Below are positions 41,820 through 56,092 of a stretch of 64,000 nucleotides of DNA, in pieces; the stretch's first letter is position 1, and the number at the start of each line of letters is the position of its first letter. This DNA comes from a phage, in the sequence record PX104378.1. The stretch is one strand, 5' to 3'. Position numbers and translations under genes: made by a program. Below the pieces are notes generated by a model, which searched no databases, had not been told where the DNA came from, and saw nothing but the letters and a program-made list of their open reading frames with translations.

Positions 41820-41848
41820 AGTATAGGGGATCACCGATCCCCTGTCAA
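41820..41848 (-). promoter_or_regulatory. Early promoter cassette P9 (TTGACA-N17-TATACT, palindromic spacer)
   Basis: Upstream of 41606..41785; conserved leader. Confidence 0.55.
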
Positions 41849-49713: not shown

Positions 49714-49932
49714 CTACTTTTTAATGACAAGTTCGAATTTTGCTACCTTGCGTCCTCTTTTATTGAAAGCAACCCACGGACGGTTTTCAATGTAGAACAA
49801 TTCTTCGCCAATAAAGAATACTGGCTGATTGTAAAGGCGACCCATCAGGTCACGCTGGCGAATGGTAGTAGATTCGTATACTTCTCCTACTACAAAGTGT
49901 TTGCTGATAGAGTCGGTGCAAGTAAATTTCAT
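49714..49932 (-). CDS. Small early protein
   Basis: 72 aa; promoter cassette upstream. Confidence 0.55.
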   Translation of the reverse strand: MKFTCTDSISKHFVVGEVYESTTIRQRDLMGRLYNQPVFFIGEELFYIENRPWVAFNKRGRKVAKFELVIKK

Positions 49933-50320: not shown

Positions 50321-50797
50321 TTAATCATGACCGTGATTTGCAATATCCGCTCGCGTCGTATCTTTGTGATTTCCTACGTCAAAGACACGATAACCATTTT
50401 CACGCAAAACTTTAATCACTTCTGGGTTATCTTCGAATACTCCCACCACTTCATCTTTATCAAATGATTTAATTACTTCCAGTTTGATGTGATAGTCTTT
50501 ACGGGAATCGGTACGGCCTCTCATAAAGATTTTATCAAAACACACCCCGTTAGAAATTAACCAATCCAGTGTTTCCATGTAAGCATGTGAACTTCGTCCG
50601 GTGAGGATGTAAATCAAATGCCCGTTGTCGGAAAGAGCATTGATAACACGGATTACATCGTAAATGGGGGAATCTCCCCCACATGCCTTGTTATATTCGA
50701 TCCATGACTCGACTTTATCAAGATTTTCGGTTGGCATCTTTGCTAGTCGATGCGTTGGATCTGTGATCGTAAAATCTAAATCGACAAAATATATCAT
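50321..50797 (-). CDS. HAD-like phosphatase/nucleotidase-like protein
   Basis: 158 aa; N-terminal VDLDFTITD resembles HAD motif I; ATGA coupling to nrdB. Confidence 0.45.
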   Translation of the reverse strand: MIYFVDLDFTITDPTHRLAKMPTENLDKVESWIEYNKACGGDSPIYDVIRVINALSDNGHLIYILTGRSSHAYMETLDWLISNGVCFDKIFMRGRTDSRKDYHIKLEVIKSFDKDEVVGVFEDNPEVIKVLRENGYRVFDVGNHKDTTRADIANHGHD

Positions 50798-51954
50798 AGA
50801 TATTTCCCGAATCGGTTGTAGTCGTCGTCTGTTAAATCGGTATTAACCTGAGATACCAGATACATGATCTCTACTTCTTGCGCCGCGTTTTGAACTTCGT
50901 CAGAGTTTAACCACTTACGCATCCACGGTAAAGGATGACGACGAACACTAAACGGGCTTTTCAGTCCGGCAGCACGCATACGGGAATCTGCCAGGTATTC
51001 TACATAGGTTTTCAGAATTTCCGGTGACAGATTAGGAATTGCCCCCATTGCGAATAAGTGATCTACCCATTCTTTTTCTTGCTCGACAACATCCAGAAAG
51101 ATTTTCGTTGCTTCGTCTTCAAGTTCTTCCGCAATCTGTTTCCACTCATCACCATCAGCCCCCGTTTGCCATTGACGAATAATGTATTGTGTGCCTTTTA
51201 AGTGAAGTTGTTCATCACGCGCAATAAATTTCATGATCTTCGCGTTGCCTTCCAGTAAACCACGTTCGGCAAAGCTGAAAGTACACGCAAAGGACACATA
51301 AAAACGGATTGCTTCCAGTGCATTGACGCAGTGTGCACACAGATAAATCGAAGCCATCAGATCTCGTTTTGTATCTTCAAAAAATCTTCTTGCATCATCT
51401 AATGCTGTCGGGTCGTCTCGTTCTTCCCAATAGCGGAGATCTTCTTTTGCGTTCTCATACTTACGAATCCAATAGAGAACATCATCATAATATTGCCCGA
51501 TAGATTCTGCTCGCTTCATGATAGCCGGGTTATCGATGATCTGGTCGAACTCACTAGCCGGATCAATGAAACAGTTACGCATAATGTGAGTATAACTGCG
51601 GCTATGAATCGTTTCGCTGAATGTCCATGTTTGCAACCATGTATCAAGAGTCGGATCGGATACAATTGGACCAAATGCTGCGGACGGTGCGCGACCTTGA
51701 ATAGAATCAAGTAATGTCTGATACTTCAAGTTTTCTGTGAAGAAACGCTTTTCAACGTCACCCATATTAAGATATTGAATACGGTCGGTTGCAAGTGAAA
51801 TTTCTTCGGGACGCCAGAAAAATGACAGAGATTTTTCGATCAGTTCTTCAAATACTTGATGACGCTGAATATCATAGCGAGCGATACCCAACCCACTACC
51901 CAGAAACATCGGTTCGTTCATAATATCAACATGTTCGCGGTTAAATACGCTCAT
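50794..51954 (-). CDS. nrdB: Ribonucleotide reductase beta subunit
   Basis: 386 aa vs T4 NrdB 388 aa; ferritin-like fold; position before nrdA. Confidence 0.88.
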   Translation of the reverse strand: MSVFNREHVDIMNEPMFLGSGLGIARYDIQRHQVFEELIEKSLSFFWRPEEISLATDRIQYLNMGDVEKRFFTENLKYQTLLDSIQGRAPSAAFGPIVSDPTLDTWLQTWTFSETIHSRSYTHIMRNCFIDPASEFDQIIDNPAIMKRAESIGQYYDDVLYWIRKYENAKEDLRYWEERDDPTALDDARRFFEDTKRDLMASIYLCAHCVNALEAIRFYVSFACTFSFAERGLLEGNAKIMKFIARDEQLHLKGTQYIIRQWQTGADGDEWKQIAEELEDEATKIFLDVVEQEKEWVDHLFAMGAIPNLSPEILKTYVEYLADSRMRAAGLKSPFSVRRHPLPWMRKWLNSDEVQNAAQEVEIMYLVSQVNTDLTDDDYNRFGKYL

Positions 51955-51969
51955 TAATTCACCTCACTA

Positions 51970-52137
51970 TCACTTTTTAACACAAAAGAACTTAGTATTT
52001 CTGTTTATTTCGTTATCCTGTTGCAATTCCTGCACGGCTTCAAAACAACTTTGATGTGATGAAAACTCCACGCTGGTAACAGTTCCTTTATTATATAAGC
52101 CTACGCTAACGGAAAGCAATAACCATATTGTGGCCAT
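51970..52137 (-). CDS. Small protein (55 aa), tandem paralog; not in ORF table
   Basis: MATIWLLLSVSVGLYNKGTVTSVEFSSHQSCFEAVQELQQDNEINRNTKFFCVKK; start overlaps stop of upstream paralog. Confidence 0.5.
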   Translation of the reverse strand: MATIWLLLSVSVGLYNKGTVTSVEFSSHQSCFEAVQELQQDNEINRNTKFFCVKK

Positions 52138-52310
52138 TAGTTCACCTTCTGCTTTTCAACACAGTACAGATTCATAAAGCGTTTATTGTCTTCGCGGATA
52201 ATCTCGCGAGCTTTAACGCAATCCTGCTTTGTTGCAAATTCAATGCTTGACATATTTCCGTAATTATACATTGAATTGCTGATTGCAATCAATAACCATA
52301 CAGTAGCCAT
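52137..52310 (-). CDS. Small protein (57 aa), tandem paralog; not in ORF table
   Basis: MATVWLLIAISNSMYNYGNMSSIEFATKQDCVKAREIIREDNKRFMNLYCVEKQKVN; hydrophobic N-terminus. Confidence 0.5.
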   Translation of the reverse strand: MATVWLLIAISNSMYNYGNMSSIEFATKQDCVKAREIIREDNKRFMNLYCVEKQKVN

Positions 52311-52477
52311 TATTCGACAACCTCAAAGCATTTATCATCAGGAAGAATAGCCCATTCTACGCCGTATTCATCCTCAACGTAGTAGCAAGCCCCATCATGT
52401 CGAGCATCATATACATCACCGACAACAAAGCTATCGGCTAGTTCAAAATCTACAGCAACACATTTTAATTTGATCAT
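52310..52477 (-). CDS. Small protein (55 aa)
   Basis: Start trimmed to ATG (MIKLKCVAVDF) with SD GAGGA; promoter-like element upstream. Confidence 0.5.
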   Translation of the reverse strand: MIKLKCVAVDFELADSFVVGDVYDARHDGACYYVEDEYGVEWAILPDDKCFEVVE

Positions 52478-52508
52478 AATAAAATCCTCACTTGTTTTTG
52501 ATGGTTGA

Positions 52509-52537
52509 ATTATAGCGGGGATTTCTCCCCGCGTCAA
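52509..52537 (-). promoter_or_regulatory. Promoter-like cassette P15 (TTGACG-N17-TATAAT, palindromic spacer) just after nrdA stop
   Basis: Upstream of 52310..52477; the hairpin may double as a post-nrdA structure. Confidence 0.45.
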
Positions 52538-52545
52538 CACTTATT

Positions 52546-54789
52546 TTACAGCTTGCAAGATGAACATTCGCTAGCGTCTTCCGTACCATCAGCACCATCA
52601 CGCACGTTAGCGTAATACAGTGTCTTGAGGCCGTAATATTGAGCAAACAACATATCATCTAATACATCAGCAATATCGACTTTACCAGTCTTATAAGTGC
52701 TTGGATCGTAGGATGTATTGGAACTAATCGCCTGATCTACAAACTTCTGCATGATCGCTGCCAGTGTCAGATAAGGCTTGTTACCTTTCTTGATCAGTGT
52801 CCAAAGCAGGTCAATAACATCAGCATTATTCTCTACGTTCGGAATAACCTGATTAAATTGCCCTTCTTTCGATCCTTTAACCGATACAATCCCGCGAGGC
52901 GGTTCAATACCGTTTGTACTGTTAGACACCTGAGAAGACGACTCACAAGGCATCAGCGCCGAAAGCGTACTGTTACGAATGCCATATTTTTTCAGGTCTT
53001 CGCGCAGTTCTTCCCAATCCATCTCATACACCGGGTCAACCAGTTCATCTACTGTCTTTTTGTACCAGTCGATAGGCAGTTCACCGCGTCCATAACGTGT
53101 TTCGTGTATCAGTTCGCAAGCACCTTTCTCTTTAGCCAGTTGCACACTAGCCTTAATCAGAGCATATTGCAAGCGTTCAAACGTTTTATGCGTAAACTCG
53201 TTAGCGTCTTCATATGTGAAGAAATTATCCGCCAGATATGATGCAAAGTTAGTCACACCAACACCCAGAGAGCGACGTTTTTTGGCTGTCAGAGCTTGTT
53301 CTACAGGATAATCCTGATAATCTAACAGGTTGTCAAGTGCACGCACCATAACCATAGCGATCCGCTCTACTTCTTCCATATTTTCGATATCGAAATTACC
53401 TAAAACATATGCTGCCAAAGTACATAGGCTGATCTCTGAATCATCACGACCCATCGGTTTTGTCGGCAGAGCAATTTCACAACACAGGTTAGATTGTTTA
53501 ATCGGTGCTACATTACGAATAAACGCCCCGTGATTGTTCATGTTGTCTGTGAACGCTGGATAGATTCGACCAGTGTTAAAACGTTCAATTGCCACCGCTA
53601 AAAACAGGTCTTCGGCTTTAACACGAGTTTTACGAACACTCGGATCTTTTTCCAGTTTTTCGTAAAGCTGGCGGAAACCTTCCTCATCTCGGAAGTACAG
53701 ATCCCACAACAAGCCACCCGCAACATCTGGACTAAACAGAGTAATGTAATCCCGTTTAAGGAATCGCTCTACCATCAGGTTATTAATCTGTACGCCGTAG
53801 TCAAGATGGCGAATGCGGTTATCTTCCACGCCCTTATTGTTCTTTAACACAATCAGACTTTCAAACTCTAAATGCCACATTGGGTAATAGAGTGTCGCTG
53901 CCCCGCCACGAATACCGCCTTGTGAGCATGACTTAACGGCAGTCTGAAAATGTTTCCAGAATGGGATAACGCCAGTATGACGAACTTCACCATGCCCGAT
54001 CTTAGATCCTTCCGCGCGAATCATACCAGCATTGATACCGATGCCAGCACGCTTGCTAATATACTTGATGATTGCATTTGCGGTTTCATTAATACCCTGC
54101 AATGAATCATCAGATTCGATCACCACACACGAACTAAATTGTCGTGTTGGAGTACGCACACCAGCCATAATCGGAGTAGGCAGAGAGATTTGCTTATTCG
54201 CAACAGCATTATAAAAATCAATCACATGTTCAAGTCGATTTTCTGTCTCTTCTTGATGCAAGCACATACCGATCAGCATATACGCAAATTGCGGTGTTTC
54301 GATGATTTTCTTAGTGCTGCGATCCTGAACAAGATACTTCTCTTTTAACTGCATTGCACCCGCATAGGTCATTTTAAAATCAAGTTTATGGTCGATGAAT
54401 TTCTCCAGATATTCCACTTCTTCACGGGAATATTTTTGCAGAATTTCGCGATCATATTTTCCGGTTGCAATATTACGCTCAATATGGCTATAAAAATCAA
54501 TAGGTTGGAATTGACCGTATACTGATTTACGAAGTGCGAACATTGCAAGGTTACTTGCTACATATTGATAATCAGGTGTTTCTACAGTAATGTTATCTGC
54601 GGCGACCTTAATCAATACTTTCTGGATATCATTGGTAGACATACCTTCTGTCAGAAGTGGTTCAACCATATCAAACAATTCATATGGATCAACGTTATGA
54701 CCTTCGGCTGCCGCTTCCAGAATTTTCATTACTTTTTCTTTTTCAAACGGAACAGTCAGACCGGAAGACTTAACAACATTTTTAATCAT
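52546..54789 (-). CDS. nrdA: Ribonucleotide reductase alpha subunit
   Basis: 747 aa vs T4 NrdA 754 aa; ATP-cone N-terminus; C-terminal CSSCKL redox tail. Confidence 0.92.
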   Translation of the reverse strand: MIKNVVKSSGLTVPFEKEKVMKILEAAAEGHNVDPYELFDMVEPLLTEGMSTNDIQKVLIKVAADNITVETPDYQYVASNLAMFALRKSVYGQFQPIDFYSHIERNIATGKYDREILQKYSREEVEYLEKFIDHKLDFKMTYAGAMQLKEKYLVQDRSTKKIIETPQFAYMLIGMCLHQEETENRLEHVIDFYNAVANKQISLPTPIMAGVRTPTRQFSSCVVIESDDSLQGINETANAIIKYISKRAGIGINAGMIRAEGSKIGHGEVRHTGVIPFWKHFQTAVKSCSQGGIRGGAATLYYPMWHLEFESLIVLKNNKGVEDNRIRHLDYGVQINNLMVERFLKRDYITLFSPDVAGGLLWDLYFRDEEGFRQLYEKLEKDPSVRKTRVKAEDLFLAVAIERFNTGRIYPAFTDNMNNHGAFIRNVAPIKQSNLCCEIALPTKPMGRDDSEISLCTLAAYVLGNFDIENMEEVERIAMVMVRALDNLLDYQDYPVEQALTAKKRRSLGVGVTNFASYLADNFFTYEDANEFTHKTFERLQYALIKASVQLAKEKGACELIHETRYGRGELPIDWYKKTVDELVDPVYEMDWEELREDLKKYGIRNSTLSALMPCESSSQVSNSTNGIEPPRGIVSVKGSKEGQFNQVIPNVENNADVIDLLWTLIKKGNKPYLTLAAIMQKFVDQAISSNTSYDPSTYKTGKVDIADVLDDMLFAQYYGLKTLYYANVRDGADGTEDASECSSCKL

Positions 54790-54859: not shown

Positions 54860-56092
54860 TTATACTGCCATTTGAGCGGTGATTGCTGGATGGCTTTGAT
54901 AGTTGTGAATTTTAAAGTCTTTCGGAGTCTTTGTCAATACCTCATCTAAAGATTTAAATTCCGGCAACTCAATTGTTGGTTTATCAAACGGAACACGGCT
55001 TAACTGTTCAATAACTTGATCAAAATGGTTTTTGTAAATGTGAGTATCTCCACCAGAGAAAATCAGTTCTCCTACCTCAAGATCACACATTTTCGCTATG
55101 ATGTGAGTTAACAGCGCATAGCTGGCAACATTAAAGGGCAAGCCCAAAAAGCTGTCTACGCTTCGCTGAAACCACATACAAGACAGTTTACCTTCATTGA
55201 CATAGAATTGCACGAACGGATGACATACACCTAATACAGCATTATGTGTTCCTTGTACGTTCCATGAGTCAATAATGATCCGGCGATCCGTTGGATTGTT
55301 TTTAATTTGTTCAATCACGTTTTGTAATTGGTCTTCCCAAATCTTCGGGCGATAGACATATTCTTCATCGTCTTTAGTGCTCGATGTGTCTACGTCCATA
55401 CTAGCAAAAATCGTGGTATCTGGTGCTAAAATATCCCCACCCAGATAATCACTATCAAGTAGATAACCGAAATAACCATCATCTACCCATTCCTGGAATC
55501 CCCACAAGCAATATGCATCATTAACAAAATTAGATTGAGTCTTCCAGTGGTCTGCTACTAAGAATAGATTATATTCAGAATCAAACTCTTCATAACGCAT
55601 ACCACGCCAGATAGCACATAAACGGTCTTCTGTGTCGTTGGTTGGCGTAAAGTCTTCTACCCACGGGTGTTTAAATGTATGTGTATATTTGCTCTTAACG
55701 CGCTTAATTTTGATTTCACCGTGTGGGTGAATCGGTTTGCGTCGCCACGCCATACCATACATATTGCCGACATTATAACCATTGAATCGCAAAGGATTCT
55801 TTTCTTTCATATCAAGACAGTTGCCGCGCCAAATGTCGAAGGCTTCTTCGTCAAACTTACCGCGTGTAATTTCCTGTAAGCGACGGCGGTCAAGTGATCC
55901 CTCCATAAACCATATCAACTCGCCAATTACAGAGGCTGTAGCCATCTTTTTAGTGGTCAGTAAGGGGAAACCCTTTCTTAAATCAATTCGCATCTCTGCG
56001 CCGAATTTAGAGAGCGTACCTACCCCCGTGCGGTCTTCACGAGGCCAGCCATTATCAAGAACATCACGCAACAGTTTCAAATATTCTTTCAT
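54860..56092 (-). CDS. td: Thymidylate synthase with about 130-aa internal insertion
   Basis: 410 aa; TS motifs DRTGVGT, ELIWFMEG, RRIIIDSWN, VCHPFVQFYV, SVDSFLGLPFNVASYALL, GDTHIYKNH; insertion between MYGMAWRR and DQLQNVIEQ. Confidence 0.9.
   Translation of the reverse strand: MKEYLKLLRDVLDNGWPREDRTGVGTLSKFGAEMRIDLRKGFPLLTTKKMATASVIGELIWFMEGSLDRRRLQEITRGKFDEEAFDIWRGNCLDMKEKNPLRFNGYNVGNMYGMAWRRKPIHPHGEIKIKRVKSKYTHTFKHPWVEDFTPTNDTEDRLCAIWRGMRYEEFDSEYNLFLVADHWKTQSNFVNDAYCLWGFQEWVDDGYFGYLLDSDYLGGDILAPDTTIFASMDVDTSSTKDDEEYVYRPKIWEDQLQNVIEQIKNNPTDRRIIIDSWNVQGTHNAVLGVCHPFVQFYVNEGKLSCMWFQRSVDSFLGLPFNVASYALLTHIIAKMCDLEVGELIFSGGDTHIYKNHFDQVIEQLSRVPFDKPTIELPEFKSLDEVLTKTPKDFKIHNYQSHPAITAQMAV

What the first reader, a model, noticed from the sequence alone, without database searches (positions are those of the whole stretch)
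51970..52477. Three overlapping mini-genes between nrdA and nrdB, two of them paralogs with hydrophobic N-termini
Between nrdA and nrdB lie three 55-57 aa ORFs linked by 1-nt start-stop overlaps. Two are paralogs (MATVWLLIAISNSMYNYGNMSSIEF... and MATIWLLLSVSVGLYNKGTVTSVEF...), each with an N-terminal hydrophobic segment and a conserved C..C pair. Small membrane-targeted proteins co-transcribed with ribonucleotide reductase are not part of the canonical T4 nrd operon as I recall it.
Basis: seen in the sequence. Interest (0 to 1): 0.45.

Follow-up and report, generated by a model that had tools for sequence, protein, structure and literature searches.

The report
Small accessory gene cassette between nrdA/nrdB
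The three mini-genes between the two ribonucleotide-reductase genes are real, already annotated "hypothetical" accessory genes of RB49-type (Krischvirus) phages, driven by a known promoter/stem-loop cassette; two of them belong to a widespread family of small, probably soluble phage proteins of unknown function, not membrane proteins.

Summary
On the minus strand, nrdA (54789-52546) and nrdB (51954-50794) are separated by three ORFs of 55, 57 and 55 aa, joined by TAATG overlaps. ORF2 and ORF3 are 40% identical (E 2e-17).

The window is a Krischvirus (RB49-like) phage. These are RB49ORF233c/232c/231c, annotated as hypothetical proteins.

ORF2 and ORF3 are under purifying selection (pN/pS 0.06 and 0.31). 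ORF1 is broken in 5 of 18 relatives.

The membrane reading is not supported:
- The hydrophobic N-terminus is only 6-17 apolar or small residues long.
- It usually carries no charge before it.
- It is the best-conserved part of the family.
- AlphaFold2 (pLDDT 94) models it as strand 1 of a compact strand-strand-helix-strand domain.

Relatives (phrog_5579; about 50 clusters, with two invariant Cys) lie in small-gene arrays of T1-like, jumbo, Vibrio and P22-like phages. None examined is next to nrd genes.

Right after nrdA sits a "PeSL" (promoter-early stem-loop): TTGACG-[GC hairpin]-TATAAT. This is the published RB49-type mobile regulatory cassette.

The same slot holds mobE in T4. In some Krischviruses it holds homing endonucleases; in phage AV108 one replaces ORF2 and ORF3.

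Verdict: an ordinary accessory cassette of unknown function. Interest is low.

The parts
52546..54789 (-). nrdA, the large subunit of class Ia ribonucleotide reductase; upstream border of the slot
   Evidence: 747-aa ORF. Annotated nrdA in RB49 and its relatives.
52509..52537 (-). PeSL (promoter-early stem-loop): -35 TTGACG (52537-52532), 17-nt spacer, -10 TATAAT (52514-52509)
   Evidence: 11 of 12 match to the sigma-70 consensus. Identical in 17 of 18 relatives; Makalu003 has TATACT. Annotated as a promoter in GEC-3S and as a terminator in Makalu_003. Fits the published PeSL definition (PMC2839356). Five more elements of the same design lie in the window.
52515..52532 (-). GC-rich stem-loop GCGGGGA-GAAA-TCCCCGC: 7 bp with a GAAA loop, overlapping the last base of the -35 hexamer and filling the spacer. 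Probable attenuator/terminator of nrdA read-through.
   Evidence: RNA fold of 52495-52550 (-): -16.5 kcal/mol, z = -4.3, and 0 of 200 shuffles fold as well. There is no T-run after it, so it is not a canonical intrinsic terminator.
52310..52477 (-). ORF1, 55 aa, acidic; equals RB49ORF233c and phrog_16302. Found only in Krischvirus and decaying in several lineages.
   Evidence: phrog_16302 match E 3.6e-40. Present in 59 records, all Krischvirus. Nonsense or frameshift lesions in ELT3, kaaroe, pEJ01, FL37 and AV108; a 21-nt in-frame duplication in GEC-3S. pN/pS 0.28 among intact copies. Truncated products of 30-40 aa occur in independent assemblies.
52137..52310 (-). ORF2, 57 aa; equals RB49ORF232c, member of phrog_5579. 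Its start overlaps the ORF1 stop (TAATG).
   Evidence: Intact in all 16 related loci that hold it, at 98-100% aa identity; pN/pS 0.06.
51970..52137 (-). ORF3, 55 aa; equals RB49ORF231c, member of phrog_5579. Its start overlaps the ORF2 stop (TAATG), and an AAGGTG Shine-Dalgarno lies inside ORF2.
   Evidence: Intact in 16 of 16 loci; pN/pS 0.31. AlphaFold2 pLDDT 94.3: strand 5-11, strand 20-25, helix 28-39 (plus a short helix 42-46), strand 48-54.
50794..51954 (-). nrdB, the small subunit of ribonucleotide reductase. It starts 15 nt after the ORF3 stop, has its own GAGGTG Shine-Dalgarno, and is probably co-transcribed from the PeSL promoter.
   Evidence: 386-aa ORF. Annotated nrdB in relatives. 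Sequence.

Best explanation
This is a PeSL-plus-ORFan accessory cassette in the variable slot between nrdA and nrdB of a Krischvirus (RB49-type) phage.

Shown:
- The three ORFs are real protein-coding genes.
- They lie directly downstream of a near-consensus sigma-70 promoter whose spacer is a GC hairpin (a PeSL).
- They are joined by TAATG overlaps and internal Shine-Dalgarno sites.
- They end 15 nt before nrdB.

Inferred for expression:
- Host RNA polymerase starts at the PeSL early in infection.
- It makes one ORF1-ORF2-ORF3-nrdB message, and the hairpin attenuates read-through from nrdA.
- ORF2 and ORF3 are translated by coupling.

Shown for the proteins:
- ORF2 and ORF3 belong to one widespread family of phage proteins of 50-70 aa.
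- The family has two invariant Cys and a conserved N-terminal W-L-L...S-x-G-x-Y-N-x-G motif.
- The confident predicted fold is strand-strand-helix-strand, with the hydrophobic N-terminus as the first strand.
- Both faces of that strand are apolar in the sequence.

Inferred for function:
- They are soluble cytoplasmic mini-proteins.
- They pair with themselves, each other or a host protein through the exposed hydrophobic sheet face.
- They act as dispensable host-interaction or counter-defence accessory factors, in the manner of other small early phage binders. They are not parts of ribonucleotide reductase.

ORF1 is a lineage-restricted ORFan that is being lost.
For: Identity and annotation.

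Coding evidence: pN/pS 0.06-0.31 with an excess of third-position changes. ORF2 and ORF3 are intact in 16 of 16 loci.

PeSL evidence:
- Promoter scan 11/12.
- Hairpin z = -4.3.
- Conserved in 17 of 18 relatives.
- Five further TTGACx-[G4..C4]-TATAAT elements in the window.
- Published definition, with reporter evidence that RB49/phi1 PeSLs are strong early promoters and that their stem-loops terminate (PMC2839356; PMC4122927).

Plastic slot:
- T4 has mobE and nrdB.1 here (PMC2988022).
- G5211 has an HNH/AP2 endonuclease between ORF3 and nrdB.
- AV108 has a NUMOD3 endonuclease in place of ORF2 and ORF3.
- About 4 of 59 Krischvirus records lack ORF3.
- A metagenomic relative with 92%-identical NrdB carries only a 49%-identical family member at the ORF3 position.

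Soluble fold:
- AlphaFold2 pLDDT 94.3, pTM 0.73.
- An independent BFVD model of the Makalu_003 orthologue superposes at TM 0.92.
- Hydropathy and run-length statistics.

Not specific to ribonucleotide reductase: no nrd gene is annotated or called in the stretches fetched around relatives, which reached 3-8 kb a side where the contig allowed (about 2 kb for P0020). These were relatives in T1-like phages, a jumbo Erwinia phage, a Vibrio phage, the nin region of a P22-like prophage and three metagenomic phages.
Against: - No experiment or expression data for these genes was found.
- The function is inferred from size, fold class and genomic setting only.
- Two invariant Cys are unusual for a purely cytoplasmic binder. 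They would fit a disulfide (export) or a metal or redox site.
- In the Krischvirus lineage the family is persistently kept just upstream of nrdB, which leaves room for a link with the reductase.
- The hairpin has no T-run, so termination is inferred from the literature on other PeSLs, not shown here.
Confidence: 0.6

Rival explanations
1. One reading: ORF2 and ORF3 are exported or membrane-anchored mini-proteins. The hydrophobic N-terminus would be a short signal peptide or anchor, with S-x-G as a -3/-1 cleavage site. The two invariant Cys would form a disulfide that stabilises a mature peptide of about 40 aa outside the cytoplasm, for example for superinfection exclusion or envelope modulation.
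For: - The invariant Cys pair.
- The near-invariant S11 and the frequent G13 could serve as small -3/-1 residues.
Against: - 0 of 50 members reach the Kyte-Doolittle 1.6 threshold.
- The apolar run has a median of 13 residues and falls to 6-8 in some members.
- 41 of 50 members lack any positive n-region, and some start ME.. or MIE...
- The N-terminal third is the best-conserved part of the family.
- AlphaFold2 places it with pLDDT about 91 as a strand inside the domain, and an independent BFVD model agrees.
Confidence: 0.12
2. ORF2 and ORF3 are accessory factors of the phage ribonucleotide reductase. They would form a heterodimer whose 2+2 Cys carry a metal or Fe-S centre, or act as a redox pair. 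That pair would serve NrdB cofactor assembly or reduction, by analogy with YfaE or NrdH encoded next to bacterial nrd genes.
For: - The position immediately upstream of nrdB, probably co-transcribed with it.
- The position is kept in a divergent relative.
- Two invariant Cys per protein.
- One Cys lies in the first turn of the predicted helix.
Against: - Relatives occur in phage regions with no nrd gene in the stretches fetched.
- The viable phage AV108 lacks both genes but keeps nrdA and nrdB.
- There is no CXXC motif and no Pfam, NCBIfam or PDB sequence match to redoxins or ferredoxins.
- T4 and most T4-type phages have other genes in this slot.
Confidence: 0.07
3. The ORFs are passengers or remnants of homing-endonuclease traffic in this slot. 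They would be DNA carried in by co-conversion, with little function of its own.
For: - The slot is a homing-endonuclease site in T4 (mobE) and in G5211 and AV108.
- A family member lies two genes downstream of a GIY-YIG endonuclease in another phage.
- ORF1 is decaying.
Against: - ORF2 has pN/pS 0.06 and is intact in 16 of 16 loci.
- The family is conserved across very different phages, with invariant residues.
- There is no similarity to endonuclease domains.
Confidence: 0.06
4. The region is an untranslated spacer and the ORFs are chance reading frames.
For: - Only ORF1 shows frameshifts or a stop, in 5 of 18 relatives.
- Two of those indels lie in homopolymer runs and could equally be sequencing errors.
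Against: - Purifying selection on all three ORFs.
- Shine-Dalgarno sites and TAATG coupling.
- Homologues across phage families.
- A confident fold.
Confidence: 0.02

Closest known systems
RB49ORF233c / RB49ORF232c / RB49ORF231c (phi1 ORF233-231), hypothetical proteins of Krischvirus phages
   Same: Direct orthologues: same order, same overlaps, same flanking nrdA and nrdB. Amino-acid identity to the window is 94%, 100% and 91%.
   Different: Nothing essential differs. The window's nearest genome is UPWr_E1, at 99% DNA identity.
PeSL (promoter-early stem-loop) + ORFan cassettes of RB49/phi1 (Arbiol et al. 2010, PMC2839356; Comeau et al. 2014, PMC4122927)
   Same: - Near-consensus TTGACA-N17-TATAAT promoter with a GN-loop-CN hairpin between the boxes.
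- An AT-rich leader that holds the upstream stop codon.
- A Shine-Dalgarno site and start codon at the 3' end.
- A small ORFan downstream.
- The element is repeated in the genome.
   Different: - The papers stress hyperplastic regions. This copy sits between two conserved metabolic genes and has no second PeSL before nrdB.
- Text searches of those two papers found no mention of nrd genes or ORF231-233.
PHROG phrog_5579 (function unknown); the kaaroe record labels both genes VOG8694
   Same: ORF2 and ORF3 match the whole 52-position profile (E about 1e-24). Both are given the same VOG in the kaaroe record.
   Different: The profile search here widens the family to about 50 clusters at 50% identity. 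These include T1-like phages, jumbo phages and P22-like prophages.
T4 mobE / nrdB.1 in the nrdA-nrdB gap
   Same: - Same genomic slot.
- UAAUG-type coupling to the upstream gene.
- A terminator-like hairpin plus a separate promoter for nrdB, so nrdA and nrdB are expressed both together and separately (PMC2988022).
   Different: - The T4 genes are an HNH homing endonuclease and, by my reading of its sequence (not tested against Pfam), a possible NUMOD-like remnant. There is no sequence similarity to the window's ORFs.
- T4 uses a middle promoter here. RB49-type phages use a sigma-70-like early promoter.
Small phage-encoded protein binders of similar size and alpha/beta make-up (e.g. Dmd of RB69, p56 of phage PZA, AcrIC8, AcrIIC3)
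   Same: They are 50-120 aa, with a small sheet plus a helix. They appear among the weak structural neighbours.

Membership tests
phrog_5579 small phage protein family | Full-length match to the family profile | tested here: met
   ORF3 scores E 2e-24 over residues 2-55 against profile positions 1-52 of 52. ORF2 scores E 6.8e-24 over residues 2-53 against 1-52 of 52.
phrog_5579 small phage protein family | Family signature found here: two invariant Cys plus W5, L7, S11, N16, G18 and F25 | tested here: met
   Both window proteins carry all of these residues.
PeSL (promoter-early stem-loop) of RB49/phi1 | Near-consensus sigma-70 -35 and -10 boxes, 17 nt apart | tested here: met
   TTGACG-17-TATAAT, 11 of 12 matches.
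PeSL (promoter-early stem-loop) of RB49/phi1 | A stable GN-loop-CN stem-loop within or overlapping the promoter | tested here: met
   GCGGGGA-GAAA-TCCCCGC fills the spacer: -16.5 kcal/mol, z -4.3.
PeSL (promoter-early stem-loop) of RB49/phi1 | An AT-rich leader holding the upstream stop codon, with the Shine-Dalgarno site and start of the next gene at the 3' end | tested here: met
   The sequence reads TGTAAAATAAGTG before the -35 box, and GAGG-N8-ATG lies 20-34 nt after the -10 box.
PeSL (promoter-early stem-loop) of RB49/phi1 | Repeated element in the genome | tested here: met
   Five more elements of the same design, at 41848, 40692, 37428, 37184 and 34875 on the minus strand.
PeSL (promoter-early stem-loop) of RB49/phi1 | Early promoter activity and termination in vivo | not testable with these tools
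   Reporter data exist only for other PeSLs: 193/192, 206/205 and 211/210 (PMC2839356).
Single-pass transmembrane / signal-anchor protein | A hydrophobic stretch of about 19 or more residues (19-residue Kyte-Doolittle mean of at least 1.6) | tested here: not met
   Maxima are 1.09 (ORF3) and 0.61 (ORF2). 0 of 50 family members reach 1.6.
Sec signal peptide | A positively charged n-region followed by an h-region of 10-15 residues | tested here: not met
   Net charge before the run is 0 in 41 of 50 members and negative in 4 of 50. Strictly hydrophobic runs are 7-10 residues, read directly from the sequences.
Sec signal peptide | Small residues at -3 and -1 of a cleavage site | tested here: inconclusive
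   S11-x-G13 could serve, but it belongs to a conserved S-x-G-x-Y-N-x-G turn. No signal-peptide predictor was available.
T4 nrdA.1 / nrdA.2 / nrdB.1 / mobE | Sequence similarity to the T4 proteins | tested here: not met
   The family HMM finds nothing better than E 0.22 in the T4 td-denA region. The tblastn hits are short, and the best lies on the non-coding strand.
Thioredoxin / glutaredoxin / NrdH redoxins | A CXXC active site and a thioredoxin-fold profile match | tested here: not met
   The Cys residues are 21 positions apart. There is no Pfam or NCBIfam hit.

The most novel reading that the evidence does not exclude
ORF2 and ORF3 would represent an uncharacterised, widely spread family of phage mini-proteins: strand-strand-helix-strand, with an invariant Cys pair and a conserved W-L-L / Y-N-x-G surface. 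In this reading the paired copies form a Cys-dependent heterodimer (metal-bridged or redox-sensitive) that binds a conserved host target. That target might be a defence or nucleotide-metabolism protein. Kept next to nrdB in Krischvirus, the pair could couple counter-defence or dNTP-pool control to reductase expression.
Probability: 0.12. Interest if true: 0.55.

Novelty: already known. Interest (0 to 1): 0.2.

Why it matters
It matters little for ribonucleotide reductase biology. The cassette is one more example of the plastic filling of the nrdA-nrdB gap, and of PeSL-driven ORFan cassettes in RB49-type phages.

The useful by-product is a cleaner description of a small phage protein family (phrog_5579):
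- It has a confident predicted fold.
- It has invariant residues.
- It occurs in T4-like, T1-like, jumbo and lambdoid phages.

This makes it a defined, cheap target of 55 aa for screens of phage accessory, anti-defence or toxic early genes. It also corrects the tempting but wrong reading of a short hydrophobic N-terminus as a membrane signal.

Tried and rejected
- **Family libraries.** Pfam, NCBIfam and PADLOC scans of the three proteins and of 50 family members gave nothing above threshold. The only hints were ORF1 against DUF7244 (E 0.014) and ORF3 against DUF5822 (E 0.25), both below cut-off.
- **Solved structures by sequence.** The PDB profile search gave no hit better than E 0.37.
- **Word-indexed protein searches.** These found only Krischvirus orthologues. 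The exhaustive profile search was needed to reach distant relatives. Two of its hits, P0022 (775 aa) and P0032 (351 aa), are repetitive proteins that I judged spurious and left out.
- **The search for related loci.** With the close alignment it returned only two Krischvirus contigs.
- **Rfam.** No RNA family matched 51700-52800 at E up to 1.
- **Literature.** No paper names these ORFs or phrog_5579. A search for Krischvirus transcriptome data found nothing relevant.
- **Rejected reading: recent tandem duplication.** ORF3 is closer to the metagenomic P0019 and P0018 (51% and 49%) than to ORF2 (42%). ORF2 is closer to P0020 (49%). So this is either an old duplication or two separate acquisitions. 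The sequences are too short to decide.

Full report
**What is there.**

All genes in this part of the window run on the minus strand: td (56092-54860), nrdA (54789-52546), three small ORFs, nrdB (51954-50794) and a 158-aa HAD/PNKP-type phosphatase ORF (50797-50321).

The three small ORFs are:
- ORF1, 52477-52310, 55 aa.
- ORF2, 52310-52137, 57 aa.
- ORF3, 52137-51970, 55 aa.

Both internal junctions read TAATG, so stop and start share one base. ORF1 has GAGG 8 nt before its ATG. ORF2 and ORF3 have GAGG and AAGGTG inside the preceding ORF. nrdB starts 15 nt after the ORF3 stop, behind GAGGTG.

ORF2 and ORF3 align over their whole length at 40% identity and 73% positives (E 2e-17).

**Where the window comes from, and whether the ORFs are known.**

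The 701-bp region matches 59 phage records at 90-99% identity. All are Krischvirus (RB49-like T4-type coliphages), and the best is UPWr_E1 at 99%.

In RB49 the three ORFs are annotated as RB49ORF233c, 232c and 231c, hypothetical proteins. The same three CDSs are annotated in phi1, JK32, KFS-EC, Sf20 and others.

PHROGs holds them as phrog_16302 (ORF1) and phrog_5579 (ORF2 and ORF3), both of unknown function. No paper in the library names them.

**Are they genes?**

I compared the window with 17 related loci, 16 of which carry ORF2 and ORF3. Both are intact in all 16.

| ORF | Pooled pairwise pN/pS | Variable sites at codon positions 1/2/3 |
|---|---|---|
| ORF1 (intact copies only) | 0.28 | 6/5/13 |
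| ORF2 | 0.06 | 4/1/10 |
| ORF3 | 0.31 | 6/4/14 |

ORF1 is different. It is confined to Krischvirus and is broken in 5 of 18 genomes:
- a GAA/GAG-to-TAG change in ELT3;
- +1 T in kaaroe;
- -1 A in pEJ01;
- -2 nt in FL37;
- +1 T in AV108.

GEC-3S carries a 21-nt in-frame duplication. Two of the indels lie in homopolymer runs and could be sequencing errors. The nonsense change and the 2-nt deletion are less likely to be. My reading is that ORF2 and ORF3 are maintained genes and that ORF1 is a dispensable ORFan being lost in several lineages.

**The regulatory element in front.**

Eight nucleotides after the nrdA stop lies TTGACG, then a 17-nt spacer, then TATAAT (52537-52509). This is an 11/12 match to the sigma-70 consensus.

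Together with the last base of the -35 hexamer, the spacer forms a 7-bp GC stem with a GAAA loop (52532-52515). It folds at -16.5 kcal/mol with z -4.3, and 0 of 200 shuffles fold as well. The element is identical in 17 of 18 relatives. One record annotates it as a promoter and another as a terminator.

This is the published PeSL (promoter-early stem-loop) of RB49/phi1. As defined, a PeSL has:
- a near-perfect sigma-70 promoter;
- a GN-loop-CN hairpin, most often between the two boxes;
- an AT-rich leader that holds the upstream stop codon;
- the Shine-Dalgarno site and start codon of a downstream ORFan.

Reporter assays showed that other PeSLs are strong early promoters and that their stem-loops terminate. 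They are proposed to mediate shuffling of ORFan cassettes (PMC2839356; PMC4122927).

The window holds five more elements of the same design, at 41848, 40692, 37428, 37184 and 34875 on the minus strand.

I infer, but have not shown, that the hairpin damps read-through from nrdA and that the promoter starts an early ORF1-ORF2-ORF3-nrdB message. That would parallel T4, where nrdA and nrdB are expressed both together and separately through a terminator in mobE and a promoter before nrdB (PMC2988022).

**The slot is plastic.**

- In T4 the nrdA-nrdB gap holds the homing endonuclease gene mobE and nrdB.1. nrdA.1 and nrdA.2 lie between td and nrdA instead.
- Within Krischvirus, G5211 has an HNH_3/AP2 endonuclease between ORF3 and nrdB.
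- AV108 has a NUMOD3 endonuclease exactly in place of ORF2 and ORF3.
- About 4 of 59 records have ORF1 but no close ORF3.
- A metagenomic contig whose NrdB is 92% identical to the window's carries, just upstream of nrdB and again TAATG-coupled, a family member only 49% identical to ORF3.

The contents of the slot therefore turn over much faster than the flanking genes. ORF2 and ORF3 are also not needed for a viable phage.

**What ORF2 and ORF3 are.**

Word-indexed searches found only orthologues. An exhaustive profile search of 1.84 billion cluster representatives found 52 clusters at E < 1e-3. Nearly all are proteins of 50-70 aa. I excluded two long repetitive hits as spurious.

In a 50-sequence alignment the two Cys (C31 and C52 of ORF3) are invariant. 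W5, L7, S11, N16, G18 and F25 are at least 90% conserved.

tblastn and contig look-ups place relatives in these settings:
- early small-gene arrays of T1-like Drexlerviridae, often within a few genes of pnk;
- a 366-kb Erwinia phage;
- a Vibrio phage;
- the nin region, between the replication genes and rusA/Q, of a P22-like prophage of Citrobacter and Salmonella;
- two genes downstream of a GIY-YIG endonuclease in a phage with base-modification-type genes;
- after glycosyltransferases;
- next to dam.

No nrd gene is annotated or called in any of the stretches fetched. The family is therefore a mobile small accessory gene, not a ribonucleotide reductase component. There is no Pfam, NCBIfam, PADLOC or PDB sequence match.

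**Membrane or soluble?**

With the shallow alignment, AlphaFold2 gave pLDDT 69. With the 50-sequence alignment it gave pLDDT 94.3 and pTM 0.73. The model has strand 5-11, a conserved loop 12-19, strand 20-25, helix 28-39, a short helix 42-46 and strand 48-54. An independent BFVD model of the Makalu_003 orthologue superposes at TM 0.92. Dozens of uncharacterised phage proteins of 55-65 aa share the fold at TM 0.7-0.84.

The hydrophobic N-terminus is thus predicted to be the first strand of a small sheet. Several independent points agree:
- No family member reaches the classical 19-residue Kyte-Doolittle threshold of 1.6 (maximum 1.43).
- The apolar/small run is 6-17 residues long.
- 41 of 50 members have no charge before it, and some start with acidic residues.
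- This segment is the most conserved part of the family, unlike a signal peptide.

Both faces of strand 1 are apolar in the sequence: I4/L6/L8/V10 on one face, and the conserved W5/L7 on the other. I take this as a sign of dimerisation or partner binding on the open sheet face. That is inference.

The one point in favour of export is the invariant Cys pair, which could be a disulfide. S11-x-G13 could also serve as a cleavage site. I give that rival about 12%.

**Function.**

My committed reading has modest confidence for the functional step. ORF2 and ORF3 are early, dispensable, soluble mini-proteins that act by binding a host or phage protein, perhaps as a pair. This is the usual mode of action of small early phage genes found in such arrays.

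A reductase-linked role (a Cys-based metal or redox heterodimer) is not excluded. It is made unlikely by the family's contexts and by AV108.

**Verdict.**

The paralogy and the Cys pair are confirmed and extend to a wider family. The membrane interpretation is not supported. The arrangement is an instance of two published themes: the plastic, endonuclease-prone nrdA-nrdB gap, and PeSL-plus-ORFan cassettes of RB49-type phages. The genes are already annotated as hypothetical proteins. Novelty is "already known", with function unknown, and interest is low.

Noticed in passing
window 54860-56092 (-): The thymidylate synthase (td) is 410 aa. The Pfam Thymidylat_synt profile matches in two stretches, the second being residues 254-410 against profile positions 110-266. 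So roughly 130 extra residues sit in the middle of the enzyme. RB49's td is also 410 aa. T4's td instead carries a group I intron with I-TevI.
   Followed up: no
window 41848-41820, 40692-40663, 37428-37400, 37184-37156, 34875-34847 (all -): Five further PeSL-type elements: TTGACx, then a spacer made of a G4..C4 hairpin, then TATAAT or a near match. They have the same design as the one after nrdA.
   Followed up: partly
L033 1-718 (ENA ERZ27254724 k141_40510): This metagenomic relative has an NrdB N-terminus 92% identical to the window's. Its ORF3-position protein is only 49% identical, and it is TAATG-coupled to an upstream ORF with a different C-terminus. The small-gene slot diverges or is swapped far faster than nrdB.
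   Followed up: partly
L023 (phage AV108) 900-1640; L021 (phage G5211) 929-1468: Free-standing homing endonuclease genes occupy the nrdA-nrdB slot in some Krischviruses. AV108 has a NUMOD3-type gene in place of ORF2 and ORF3; the junction keeps the ORF1 stop and a copy of the nrdB Shine-Dalgarno region. G5211 has an HNH_3/AP2 gene between ORF3 and nrdB.
   Followed up: partly
window 50321-50797 (-): The 158-aa ORF overlapping the nrdB stop is a HAD_PNKP phosphatase domain (E 3e-13). T1-like relatives of ORF2/ORF3 also lie within 0-3 genes of a polynucleotide kinase gene. This may be no more than both being early-region genes.
   Followed up: no
window 49714-49932 (-) and 52310-52477 (-): The N-terminus of ORF1 (KLKCVAVDFELADSFVVGDVYD) weakly resembles the start of a 72-aa ORF downstream of nrdB (KFTCTDSISKHFVVGEVYES): 41.7% identity over 24 aa, E 0.07. 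ORF1 also gives a sub-threshold DUF7244 hit (E 0.014).
   Followed up: no
L024 8001-8171 (Citrobacter freundii GCA_001413165.1 contig JRTD01000050.1): A 56-aa family member sits in the nin region of a P22-like prophage, between the O/P-type replication genes and an Ead/Ea22-like gene, rusA and Q. It is widespread in Salmonella and Citrobacter genomes.
   Followed up: partly
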